A stretch of DNA of 64,000 nt, from assembly GCF_009914755.1 (NCBI RefSeq), contig NC_060934.1. One strand, 5' to 3'. The notes under the pieces were generated by a model. That model had not been told where the DNA came from. It searched no databases and saw only the letters and a list, made by a program, of their open reading frames with translations. This document shows positions 9,567 through 13,479 of the stretch, piece after piece. The position numbers and the translations under genes are program-made. The DNA is from the human T2T-CHM13v2.0 reference genome, Homo sapiens. The first letter of the stretch is position 1. Every line of letters begins with the position of its first letter.

Positions 9567-9646
9567 TACCAAAAGTTTATACTACTTTGACGTAAGTCTA
9601 CATTGGGAAAATACCTGAGTGACCCTAGAATGTTAACTTTTAAGAA
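9567..9646 (-). repeat. 80-bp inverted repeat arm A (pairs with 13400-13479)
   Basis: Reverse complement matches 13400-13479 at 74/80 positions. Confidence 0.95.
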
Positions 9647-9879
9647 TATATAGATGCTGGGGAGGGGCAGGAGCCAGCGCCCCCACCGGAATTGGAAGCT
9701 GGGGACGCACATGGGAGATGGCTTTGTAGCCACCTCGCCTTCGGCTTTGCCTCCTGCCACGCCCCACAGGCCTGGAGAATGTGGCCCTTGTTGTTTCCAG
9801 GAATACTTTACGCAATTAAAGTCATAATTAAAGTAACATATGCAAAAACCCTATCAGTACTCCTTTTATACTTAAAGTT

Positions 9880-10035
9880 TTGTTTAACTATAACCCTGTT
9901 TACTTGTTTATATGTTGTCTATGGCTGCTGTCATGCTGCAAAGGTCGAGTAGACTATGAAACAGATGATGTGGACCACAGCTCCAAATATGTTTACTATT
10001 TTGCCATTTTCAGGATGAGTTTGCTGGATGACTCC
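9880..10035 (+). mobile_element. MER58-like hAT-Charlie MITE
   Basis: gtctatggctgc...aaatatgtttactattttgccattttcagg...gtttgct. Confidence 0.6.
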
Positions 10036-10689
10036 TAAACTAGTGGAATGTCTGTGTTACTAGTACAGGGAGATCCTTGCCAGCCAATGTCAGAAAAACA
10101 AGTTGATTTTATGGACAATTTGTCATATACATACAAGCACCTTTCCAGTTTTTGTAACTATTAACGATTTATTTTCCTACTTAGTTTGCTCGCTATAACT
10201 TTGAGTGGCTCAACTATTCATCCTGTTTTGATTTCTTCATACCACTTATCCTCCTTCCAGATTATTTAATCAGGTGATTTTATGTTATACCTCAGTAGGG
10301 TCCTGAGCCTCTTGTTTGTTTACATGTCTCTATGACCCTCTTTGTTGTTTCATAAATGGATTGATGATATGTAAAATGTACATATTCATGGAAATAGCAT
10401 TTGTTCCAATTGACAAAACTATTTATAAAATGAGGATTGTAATTATGTGTGCTATTTGAATTGTGTACATGTATATTTCTGTCCTTGGATTGGAGGCAGA
10501 AAAGGGGTTGATTTTGGCTTCAGCCATGGTTGTTTCCTCGGAATCCTAAAGTTAGTTGTTCTAGGCATGGGTCTGTAGGATGAATATCCCAAGGTGACAG
10601 TCATGGTAGATCCTTAGACCTTATTCTCGTGGGATTTTTAATAAGTGTATTAGTATTTTAAGAGCTATATTAGCTATAAGAAGAAATAG

Positions 10690-12750
10690 AATCAATTTTT
10701 ATTTCAAAATGTTTCAATTTGAAATAATTGTATACTTCAGAAAAATTGAAATAATATTAACAGTATTTCTGCATACCCTTCATCTATCCTTACTGTTAAT
10801 GTTTAACATAATCATAGAACAATTATTAAAGGTAAGAAATTCATACTGATTCAGTACTGTTGACTAATCTTCAGAGGGCATCTGAATTCTCCCTCCAGTA
10901 CCCATTTTCTGTCCTCGTTGCATGTAGTTCTCATTTTTCCTCAGGCTCCTCCAGTTTGCATAATTTCCTCATTATTTCTTTTACATTCATGACCTTGACA
11001 CTTTTTAAGAATCATATTTATTTTGTAAATATTTTGTAGACTGCACCTCCATTTGGGTGTGTCTGATGTTTTGTCATGAAGTAACCTTCCATTTAATCAT
11101 GAGGAAACATCAGATAAACTCAAACGGAGGTACAGTCTATGAAATAAATATGATTCATGTGGCAGGAATGCCACAGAAGTAATGTTACATACTTCTCAGT
11201 GCATTTTATCAGATGGTGTGTGATGTTGCCATTACTGGTGATGTTAATCTTGGTAGAATGGTGGCTGCCAAGTATTTTTCCCTTTTTAGCTGAAATGTAT
11301 TTTGTGGGGAGACATTTGTAGATATACAAATATCCTGTTTGTTATCGTAATCTCCACCATTAATCCTAGCACCCATGAGTAGAATTTTACCTACAGCAGT
11401 TATTACGGTGGAGATTGCCTAATGATTTCTTTCCATCATTCCTTCTGTATTTGTTTGGAATGCTCCAGTAGGAAACAGCTGTTCCTTCTACACCACTTAT
11501 TTATTCAATTATTTATATTATTATGGATTCATGGCTGTTTAGTGTATTCTTTGGATTATGATCCAATGCTAATATTATTTATTTTGTTTTCAGGTTGTAT
11601 CAACTGTTGGGGTGATCAGACCCAACACCAGGCCATGGGGTCTATGAAGTCTGGCGGCATCAAAGGAATGAGGAAAGACAAGTTAAGAGAGAAAGTGGGA
11701 CCAGGGGGCCAATGCTAGTATGGAGGCTGCGAAGGCCCCAAGCTCTGGGAGCCCACACTGTTTATTGGTGATCAAAGAAACAGTTGGTGAGGATGTGGGG
11801 GTTGAAAGGAAGTGGTGTATCAAGTGAATGAGCTACAGCTGTGACGGTTCAGCATTTTCTTTGAAACATATGGCTACTTGAGATAAAGGGAGTGCTAGAA
11901 GCAAGGAGCCAGCAAGTCCAGACACATTCCAAAGGCCATGAGAGGTTTTAGACCTTGGACCCCGGACATGTTCCAAGCACTGCCTCAGCTTCTCTCCCAA
12001 CACTCAGCTTTTCTCCCAACACTCAACATTGTCCATTGAGAGCCCCTTCAGGTTGGCACCTGTTTCCTTTTGATGTGCCTTCATCATTTTTCAGTTCTTC
12101 CTTATTTTTGGCATCACAAAGCATTCCAGGCTTATCACGCGTCTTCCCTGATCTCAGCCCTGAAATTAACCCTATTTCTAGGGAGCCCTGGTTCATTAAC
12201 TGGAGAATGGTACTAGAAACCATGATCTGAGCACTAGGTGTGCTCATTGGCATGGGAATGCCATTTACTCTAGGATCTCTTCATGGACAGAGTTAGGAAC
12301 TCTATATTGGTGTACTCACACATGCGTTAACATTTGTCTATACCTATCTGACTGTGTACCTACCTACCTACTCATAAAAACTGTGAGTTCATACTGTTGC
12401 CTTTGATTCCACTCTAACACCACTGAGTTTATTCTAGCTTTTCCTTCTTTGTAACTTCTAACAGTGAGAACATTGGCTTTTATTTTCCAAGATATGTTCA
12501 CTTGTTTGTTTGTTCCTGGTGTGTGTGTGTGTGTGTGTGTGTATAGTAGATTGAGAAATGTGAAACCATATGCTTGTTAAGAAACAAATTTACTAATTAG
12601 AAGATAGTATTTGTGTGACATATTTTTTGTCTTTAGCTTTCAACAATGAAAATAGAGTTTTCCAAAGTTACTTAGGCTTCTTATGTTCTTCCCCACCTCT
12701 TTCTGCATGCTCATATTATTAGATTTCCTTTTATTAGATTCTCATTTCAT
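10690..12750 (-). mobile_element. Old L1MC/MD 3' region, interrupted by an ERVK LTR
   Basis: Degenerate antisense L1M 3'UTR motifs. Confidence 0.55.
11605..12021 (-). mobile_element. Solo ERVK LTR (LTR14B-like, HML-1)
   Basis: TG...CA termini; - strand start TGTTGGGAGAAAAGCTGAG; AATAAA on - strand; 6-bp TSD atcaac/ctcaac. Confidence 0.8.
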
Positions 12751-13082
12751 TAGATTCCCTTTTATCCTTTTTAGATATCTTATGCACAAATAAGCAGATA
12801 ACGTATATAATTTCTAATATCCCCTTCTCATTATATGAAGTGTAGCTCATACCACATGTATATATATGCATTCTTGCTCTGTGTTTTGCATTTTTTCTTT
12901 CCACTTAACAATATAGCCTATATTTTAGAACATATTTAAATTTACTTCCGTCTTAGCATGCTGTGATAGCAGTTTCATTATTTTTCAGCTGTAGAATTTT
13001 GTCTATAAAATATTCACTTCAGAAATGTAAAAGTAAACCATCAACACTCACAGAAACACTGTCTTTTTGAGGTTTTTCCTTC

Positions 13083-13389
13083 TTTTTTTTTTTTTTTTTT
13101 TTTTTTGAGACAGAGTCTTACTCTGTTGCCCAGACTGGAGTGCATTGGCGCAATCTCCACTCACTGCAACCTCCACCTCCCAGGTTCAAGCAATTCTCCT
13201 GCCTCAGCTTCCCCGAGTAGGTGGGTCTACAGGTGTTTGCCACCACGCCTGGCTAATTTTTGTATTTTTAGTAGAGACAGGATTTCACCATGTTGGCCAG
13301 GCTGGTCTCGAGCTTCTGACCTCAGGTGATCTGCCCACCTCAGCCTCCCAAAGTGCTGGAATTACAGGTGTGAGCTACCATGCCCAGCT
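13083..13389 (-). mobile_element. Alu (AluSx-like)
   Basis: Antisense Alu. Confidence 0.95.
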
Positions 13390-13399
13390 GAGGATTTGC

Positions 13400-13479
13400 T
13401 TCTTAAAACTTAACATTCTGGGGTCACTCAGGTATTTTCCCACTGTAGACTTATGTCAAAGTAGTATACATTTTTGGTA
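13400..13479 (+). repeat. 80-bp inverted repeat arm B
   Basis: ttcttaaaacttaacattctggggtcactcaggtattttcccactgtagacttatgtcaaagtagtatacatttttggta. Confidence 0.95.

What the first reader, a model, noticed from the sequence alone, without database searches (positions are those of the whole stretch)
9567..13479. 80-bp inverted duplication joining the promoter to the PARD3 intron end
Seen: 9567-9646 is the reverse complement of 13400-13479 (74/80 identical, no gaps), about 3.75 kb apart. It resembles no repeat family I recognise. Arm B ends 50 nt before the PARD3 acceptor. Arm A keeps a CpG in a CRE-like TGACGTAA (9588-9595), while arm B has it deaminated (ttatgtca), which fits germline hypomethylation of the island. 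Inference: scar of a staggered-break inversion or template switch that built the chimera and may have donated a CREB/CREM-type site to the promoter.
Basis: partly seen in the sequence, partly recalled or inferred. Interest (0 to 1): 0.7.

Follow-up and report, generated by a model that had tools for sequence, protein, structure and literature searches.

The report
Short DNA patch copied into promoter
An 80-base piece of a nearby intron sits, reversed, in a duplicated promoter on human chromosome 10 and is missing from that promoter's sister copy, so it is likely an ordinary and probably neutral DNA-repair patch, not the scar of an inversion that built the gene.

Summary
The inverted 80-mer is real (74/80, ungapped) and not a dispersed repeat: four copies were found genome-wide. 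They are arm A, arm B, arm B's 10q11 paralog, and PARD3 intron 2.

(1) No inversion: the DNA between the arms is collinear and co-oriented with PARD3 and with 10q.
(2) Not the chimera junction: the 10q paralog (LINC00839 promoter region) has the same promoter-PARD3 chimera with an empty site where arm A sits. The real junction lies 220 bp further on and is deleted in 10p.
(3) The CRE CpG is a gain in arm A: both arm B copies and PARD3 have A there.

Arm A is an 82-nt templated insertion with a 2-nt TA microhomology, probably as old as the 10p/10q duplication (6.3-6.9% divergence). It fits known germline templated insertions. One loose end: two of arm A's five own changes create promoter motifs (CRE half-site, CCAAT box), and the first also makes a GTAAGT donor. 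This is post hoc (P about 0.006) and RefSeq lists no matching transcript.

The parts
9567..9646 (+). Arm A: 80-nt insertion, reverse-complement copy of 13400-13479; absent from the 10q paralog
9567..9568 (+). TA shared by the template start and the target site (2-nt microhomology, left junction)
9647..9648 (+). Extra TA at the right junction relative to 10q (non-templated, 2-nt duplication, or lost in 10q); makes the insertion 82 nt
13400..13479 (+). Arm B: the template; ordinary 3' end of the copied PARD3 intron 2, 79% to PARD3, 3 differences to the 10q copy
9588..9595 (+). CRE-like TGACGTAA made by a G at 9592 that is found in arm A only
9589..9597 (+). GAC|GTAAGT donor-like site made by the same G; the only perfect GTAAGT on + between 8400 and the acceptor (31 in the window, both strands)
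9602..9606 (+). ATTGG (reverse CCAAT box) made by a T at 9603 that is found in arm A only
8480..9566 (.). GC-rich island with CCAAT boxes (9470, 9503, 9518) and a TATA-like TTATAA (9424-9429); paralog of the LINC00839 promoter region in 10q11
9649..9787 (+). Right part of the promoter segment, directly continuing the empty site in 10q; includes a 31-nt indel (9692-9722) and the remnant of an older inverted arm
9787..9792 (.). Junction of a ~1.2-kb deletion in 10p that removed the + strand GTGAGT donor-like site and the true promoter/PARD3 junction (10q C10:~43352696)
9864..13078 (+). Intervening DNA: six blocks collinear and co-oriented with PARD3 intron 2 (69-80% identity); not inverted
13083..13389 (-). 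Alu shared by 10p and 10q, absent from PARD3; arm B's left end lies 5 nt inside its right target-site duplication
13530..13716 (+). PARD3 exon-3 remnant with an in-frame stop

Best explanation
Arm A is an 82-nt insertion that is present in the 10p promoter and absent from its 10q paralog, and it was likely made as a local templated repair patch and is probably neutral. Inferred mechanism: a broken or stalled 3' end in the promoter, ending in TA, paired with a TA on the opposite strand 3.9 kb downstream, copied 80 nt of the PARD3 intron-2 remnant backwards, let go and rejoined the promoter with 0-2 extra bases (microhomology-mediated template switch or templated end joining). This happened long after the promoter-PARD3 chimera had formed, around or soon after the 10p/10q duplication. 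The CRE-like CpG arose later (or during synthesis) by an A-to-G change in arm A. Shown: empty site, junctions, collinearity, polarity of the CpG. Inferred: direction (gain in 10p rather than loss in 10q), DNA rather than RNA template, the repair pathway, neutrality.
For: Empty site in 10q: flanks 7650-9568 and 9649-9787 join directly at C10:43352915-6. The gap matches the templated segment to within 2 nt, which a random deletion would rarely do (inference). TA at the left junction in both donor and target; no microhomology at the right; no poly(A), no duplication of 5 nt or more, no TTTT/A site. Template intact and co-oriented with PARD3 on both sides. Arm A shares the chimera's state against PARD3 at 10 of 80 ungapped columns plus a 4-nt gap. 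A-B distance 7.5% (95% CI 2.8-15.6) overlaps the 10p/10q distance of 6.3-6.9% and is far below copy-to-PARD3 distance. Germline templated insertions with microhomology are common: 103 and 99 events in two people, 138 of 155 junctions with at least 1 bp of microhomology (PMC8421209, passages). Neutrality: RefSeq lists no transcript starting at this island; 10p lost the + strand donor-like site and tends to have lost more island CpGs than 10q (17 vs 8, p 0.11).
Against: No column unites arm A with B10p against B10q and PARD3; one column (9626) unites arm A with PARD3 against both B copies, which needs a back-mutation if A was copied after the duplication. Arm A has 5 own changes against about 2.6 expected per branch (P 0.12). 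Two of them create promoter motifs (post hoc P 0.006). A 2-nt microhomology is weak evidence for any one pathway. The template is 3.9 kb away, farther than the within-100-bp yeast events cited in PMC8421209. The template's ends fall 50 nt from a splice acceptor and 5 nt inside an Alu target-site duplication, unexplained under a random DNA switch. No non-human primate genome could be searched.
Confidence: 0.62

Rival explanations
1. Same insertion, but templated by RNA: the broken promoter end primed reverse transcription on the locus's own + strand pre-mRNA or intron lariat (endonuclease-independent L1 ORF2p or polymerase theta).
For: The orientation is what priming on the + strand transcript would give; the copied stretch starts 50 nt before the acceptor, 5 nt from a branch-point-like TTAAT at -46 in PARD3. 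PMC5110952 (parts 1-3 of 4 read) reports that experimental templated insertions are enriched for transcribed sequence and fall more than three-fold with RT inhibitors.
Against: An opposite-strand DNA switch gives the same orientation. The -46 motif is not intact in 10p or 10q (nearest yTnAy at -33 and -29). No exon junction or poly(A) in the insert. No transcript evidence for the + strand here.
Confidence: 0.18
2. The insertion was later exapted: new CRE half-site, CCAAT box and GTAAGT donor make arm A a working promoter or first-exon part of the 10p locus, replacing the donor that the 1.2-kb deletion removed.
For: 2 of 5 own changes create panel motifs while only 7 of 240 single changes would; P(2 or more) 0.006 in 200,000 simulations. 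The donor-like site is the only perfect GTAAGT on + before the PARD3 acceptor. The insert lies about 170-250 nt from the likely - strand start, among CCAAT boxes.
Against: The 8-motif panel was chosen by me after seeing the motifs. One TGACGTMA per window is chance-level. GTAAGT occurs 31 times in the window. The insert lies upstream of the TATA-like 9647-9654, so a transcript from there would not contain the donor. RefSeq has no such transcript; the exon-3 copy has a stop.
Confidence: 0.1
3. Arm A predates the 10p/10q duplication and was removed from 10q (TA-to-TA deletion or conversion), or 10q was copied from an allele without it.
For: Column 9626 groups arm A with PARD3; no column groups A with B10p alone; A-B distances (6, 7) exceed B-B (3); a TA-to-TA deletion would give the 10q sequence.
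Against: Needs a deletion that matches the templated segment to 2 nt. B-B of 3 or fewer has P 0.22 and A's excess P 0.12 by chance. No clear conversion tract in 200-nt bins (6-24 mismatches).
Confidence: 0.07
4. One reading: scar of a staggered-break inversion that built the promoter-PARD3 chimera.
For: Inverted non-repetitive duplicates of 46 bp to 1.9 kb do mark inversion breakpoints in Drosophila (PMC1885836, passages).
Against: Intervening DNA is co-oriented with PARD3 exon 3 and intron 3 and is one collinear block with 10q (9792-14397, 90.6%). Arm B is not at a breakpoint. The chimera exists without arm A.
Confidence: 0.02
5. The 80-mer is a dispersed repeat inserted twice.
For: The genome search skips very common words, so low copy number is not strictly proven (tool note). 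Dfam is not available here.
Against: 4 copies from 4 candidates at E up to 10, three of them explained by segmental descent; the same tool returned 45 matches for a stretch holding true repeats. Not palindromic (fold -5.4 kcal/mol). No Rfam match at gathering score.
Confidence: 0.01

Closest known systems
MMBIR-type templated insertions (MMB-TI; PMC8421209, passages seen)
   Same: Short insertion copied from a nearby template, junction microhomology, return to the original template, carried as a germline variant.
   Different: Template 3.9 kb away rather than within about 100 bp as in the yeast signature; microhomology at one junction only; an old event read from paralogs, not a variant called from reads.
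Class 2 templated sequence insertions (TSIP; PMC5110952, parts 1-3 of 4 read)
   Same: Donor intact; no target-site duplication of 5 nt or more, no poly(A); microhomology and possible non-templated bases; 80 nt is within the 73-414 bp range reported for experimental insertions.
   Different: Donor is local, not distant; 6 of 80 differences suggest an old event, and polymorphism was not tested.
Staggered-break inversion duplications (PMC1885836, passages seen)
   Same: Inverted copies of non-repetitive DNA of similar size.
   Different: No inversion between the copies, and arm B is not at a breakpoint.
LINC00839 promoter region, 10q11.21 (paralog)
   Same: About 89% identical island; published q-ChIP primers map exactly in it, and a qPCR primer maps 18.6 kb downstream on the same contig.
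   Different: 10q lacks arm A, keeps the + strand donor-like site and the PARD3 junction, and tends to keep more CpGs.

Membership tests
Templated insertion (MMB-TI / class 2 TSI) | Empty site exists without the insert | tested here: met
   10q paralog, (paralog, not allele or ortholog)
Templated insertion (MMB-TI / class 2 TSI) | Insert matches an intact genomic donor | tested here: met
   74/80 to 13400-13479; donor collinear with PARD3 on both sides
Templated insertion (MMB-TI / class 2 TSI) | Microhomology or non-templated bases at junctions | tested here: met
   TA at left, 0 at right with 2 extra nt; weak because only 2 nt
Templated insertion (MMB-TI / class 2 TSI) | DNA versus RNA template and enzyme | not testable with these tools
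   both give the same orientation
TSIP (polymorphism) | Polymorphic in humans; donor distant | tested here: not met
   donor is 3.75 kb away; polymorphism itself not testable here
Class 1 TSI (L1-mediated) | Target-site duplication of 5 nt or more, poly(A), TTTT/A site | tested here: not met
   none at the junctions
Staggered-break inversion duplication | Inverted duplicates of unique DNA | tested here: met
Staggered-break inversion duplication | Intervening DNA inverted against the ancestral order; both copies at breakpoints | tested here: not met
Dispersed repeat / MITE | Many copies, terminal inverted repeats | tested here: not met
   4 copies, no hairpin; Dfam not available
Functional CRE | TGACG half-site or TGACGTCA-like site near a promoter | tested here: met
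   9588-9595, chance-level frequency
Functional CRE | CREB/CREM/ATF binding, unmethylated CpG, effect on transcription | not testable with these tools
   no ChIP, methylation or expression data here

The most novel reading that the evidence does not exclude
A repair patch copied from the locus's own intron end (possibly from its RNA) landed in a primate-duplicated promoter and was turned by two point changes into a new CRE, CCAAT box and splice donor, rebuilding a first exon for a promoter-PARD3-CCNY-like chimeric transcript after the old donor was deleted.
Probability: 0.1. Interest if true: 0.6.

Novelty: new member of a known kind. Interest (0 to 1): 0.22.

Why it matters
As most likely read, it matters little: one more old germline templated insertion in a duplicated, apparently decaying promoter. 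It is a clean example, because the empty site (10q), the donor and the donor's ancestor (PARD3) are all in one genome, and it is an 82-nt marker that tells the 10p copy from the LINC00839 promoter region. If the motif gains proved functional it would be a well-polarised case of a regulatory element or splice donor arising from a repair patch, testable by comparing the two paralogs.

Tried and rejected
Inversion scar: rejected by collinearity. Chimera junction: rejected by the 10q empty site and the real junction. CpG retention: rejected by three copies with A; among 306 CG/CA/TG-type dinucleotide columns in the alignable intron blocks, none kept CpG in PARD3 and a paralog together, 5 had it in one paralog only, 2 in both paralogs, 12 in PARD3 only, 287 in none. 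RNA gene: no Rfam match at gathering score in 8000-15000 or 9500-9720. An 80-nt TA-flanked mariner MITE (recalled idea): no hairpin, no copies. One complex event with the 31-nt indel at 9692-9722: no template found in the window, 40 kb of 10q or 40 kb of PARD3 (best local score 24); undecided. chr19 CCAAT look-alike as outgroup: similarity ends just before the site, uninformative. Gene conversion near arm B: no clear tract. REP522 as the island's identity (recalled idea): 13 papers listed, none read, untested. PDB search with the PARD3 exon: 0 hits; identity taken from the Pfam exon positions. One search was the wrong frame; frames redone, whose 10q translation used a failed anchor and is void. 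One search scored only 4 of 43,161 candidates and does not list all paralogs. The two original papers on the ZNF33/ZNF37 duplication and the 2015 TSIP paper could not be read, so the dating has no literature check.

Full report
Observation. 9567-9646 matches the reverse complement of 13400-13479 at 74 of 80 positions without gaps, and the match stops sharply at both ends. Self-BLAST gives E 8.7e-27 and no other hit for that stretch. The repeat finder showed only the 25 longest of 347 inverted pairs, so it did not list this one. Arm B ends 50 nt before an exon at 13530. That exon and its flank match C10:34545410-738 at 83%, downstream of the two Par3 N-terminal exons, so it is a copy of PARD3 exon 3; it carries a stop.

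Copy number. A genome search with arm A at E up to 10 scored 4 candidates and kept 4: arm A, arm B (93%), C10:43347863-942 (91%) and PARD3 intron 2 (79%) (the same set emerged). The tool skips very common words, but it did return 45 matches for a neighbouring stretch with real repeats. No Rfam family reaches its gathering score on the arms. Dfam was not available.

No inversion. Against 40 kb of PARD3, six blocks between 9864 and 13078 (69-80% identity), then 13389-13754 and three blocks up to 16438, all run in the same direction and order. Against the 10q11 paralog, 9792-14397 is one block (90.6%). The staggered-break model needs an inversion flanked by the duplicates (PMC1885836, passages); there is none.

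The empty site. The window from 1 to about 30,900 is a segmental duplicate of C10:43.328-43.363 Mb in reverse, with 6.3-6.9% substitutions in two background blocks. Published LINC00839 q-ChIP primers map exactly in the 10q island and a qPCR primer 18.6 kb downstream (supplement of PMC10591773, whole file seen), so the 10p island is the paralog of the LINC00839 promoter region. In 10q the two flanks of arm A join directly: 82 nt are missing, the 80-nt arm plus TA. The donor starts with TA and the target continues with TA, a 2-nt microhomology; the right junction has none; there is no poly(A), long duplication or L1 nick motif. I infer gain in 10p, because a deletion would have to match the templated segment to 2 nt.

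Not the chimera junction. In 10q the promoter segment runs 220 bp past the empty site, through a GTGAGT donor-like site, and meets PARD3 intron-2 homology at about 43352696. 10p has lost about 1.2 kb there (junction 9787-9792), including that donor-like site and the junction. In the four-way alignment 62 columns are invariant, 10 set PARD3 apart and a 4-nt gap does too, 3 are private to A, 1 more differs in A and in PARD3 separately, 2 are private to B10q, 1 to B10p, and 1 groups A with PARD3. So arm A was copied from the chimera's intron long after it left PARD3. A-B distance is 7.5% (CI 2.8-15.6), compatible with the age of the 10p/10q duplication; by the recalled human-macaque benchmark of about 6.5% that is very roughly 25-30 million years. 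Against a simple post-duplication copy: no column groups A with B10p, and 9626 needs a back-mutation.

The CRE. At 9592 arm A has G; B10p, B10q and PARD3 have A. Retention would need three independent losses; in 306 comparable intron columns no CpG survived in PARD3 and a paralog together, while 5 appear in one paralog only. So it is a gain. The island does keep CpGs better than its flanks (29 kept and 25 lost by transition, with 18 other differences left out of the test; background 12 and 67, with 14 left out; p 3e-6), which fits long-term low germline methylation, but 10p has lost more than 10q (17 vs 8, p 0.11). One TGACGTMA in 64 kb is chance-level (26 of 100 shuffles).

Mechanism. Shown: empty site, intact local donor, inverted orientation, TA microhomology. 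Inferred: a 3' end ending in TA switched to the opposite strand 3.9 kb away, copied 80 nt and returned. This matches germline MMBIR-type templated insertions (PMC8421209, 12 passages) and the junction features of class 2 templated insertions (PMC5110952, parts 1-3 of 4). An RNA template gives the same orientation, and the copy starts 5 nt from a branch-point-like motif seen in PARD3 but not intact in 10p or 10q; I give that 0.18.

Loose end. The G at 9592 also makes GAC|GTAAGT, the only perfect GTAAGT on + before the acceptor (31 in the window on both strands), in the copy that lost its donor-like site. The T at 9603 makes a reverse CCAAT box. With a recalled 8-motif panel chosen after the fact, 7 of 240 single changes make a motif and five random changes make two or more in 0.6% of 200,000 trials. 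Against function: the post hoc panel, no RefSeq transcript from this island, both arms inside an intron of the predicted LOC105376500 model, and the insert lies upstream of the + strand TATA-like site. Probability about 0.1.

Literature. Nine searches listed no paper whose title or abstract start describes this insertion or a PARD3 piece at this locus; most hits were seen as listings only. Passages were also seen of PMC8474217 (CCNYL2 at 10q11.21), PMC3048570 (ZNF33A/37A/33B/37B listed as duplicons), PMC10937278 (LINC00839 at 10q11.21, 5 exons, 19,847 nt) and PMC10591773. The original 10p/10q duplication papers were not held; they, and supplements of templated-insertion catalogues that I did not see, may mention the region.

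Verdict. Real feature, right general class (template switch), wrong story (inversion, chimera junction, retained CpG). New member of a known kind; interest 0.22.

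Noticed in passing
window 8999-9163 and 9720-9787; 10q C10:43352703-43352867: An older inverted repeat (73%, about 165 nt) makes the island roughly symmetric, with a GTGAGT donor-like site in each arm; in 10q the right arm ends within 7 nt of where PARD3 homology begins, so it is a better candidate for a junction-related fold-back than the 80-mer.
   Followed up: partly
window 9062-9397; L038 (C23), L039 (C12), L042 (C3), L043 (C5): Four dispersed 72-79% copies of the island's - strand first-exon-like stretch stop at its donor site; the C23 and C5 copies share about 140 nt more. 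They look like old processed copies of a transcript from this promoter or a relative.
   Followed up: partly
window 9449-9561; L047 (C19:30439980-30440091): The CCAAT-box cluster has a 73% look-alike on C19.
   Followed up: partly
window 9692-9722: 31 nt present in 10p and absent in 10q, 45 nt from arm A; polarity unknown, no template found.
   Followed up: partly
window 11604-12020: About 420 nt with TG...CA ends, absent from PARD3 and shared with 10q: solo-LTR-like (family LTR14B is recalled, not tested).
   Followed up: no
window 11030-11146: Imperfect 117-nt palindrome (73.5%), partly present in PARD3; probably a DNA-transposon remnant.
   Followed up: no
window 14307-14484: 87-nt tandem duplication (94.5%) that appears as an overlap against 10q, so probably specific to 10p.
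   Followed up: no
10q C10:43354808-43355052: 10q holds a second, 91% copy of window 8999-9243 about 1.5 kb from the island.
   Followed up: no
window 26087-28149: Around the annotated CCNYL4 start, 10p has lost CpGs relative to 10q (14 vs 2, p 0.004).
   Followed up: no
window 24582-31000: This part has further 83-90% paralogs at C10:39.05, 46.56, 46.99 and 47.22 Mb (incomplete search).
   Followed up: no
window 9383-16305: Both arms lie in one intron of the predicted - strand lncRNA LOC105376500, so its pre-mRNA could form an 80-bp duplex (duplex energy -72.9 kcal/mol with DNA parameters).
   Followed up: no
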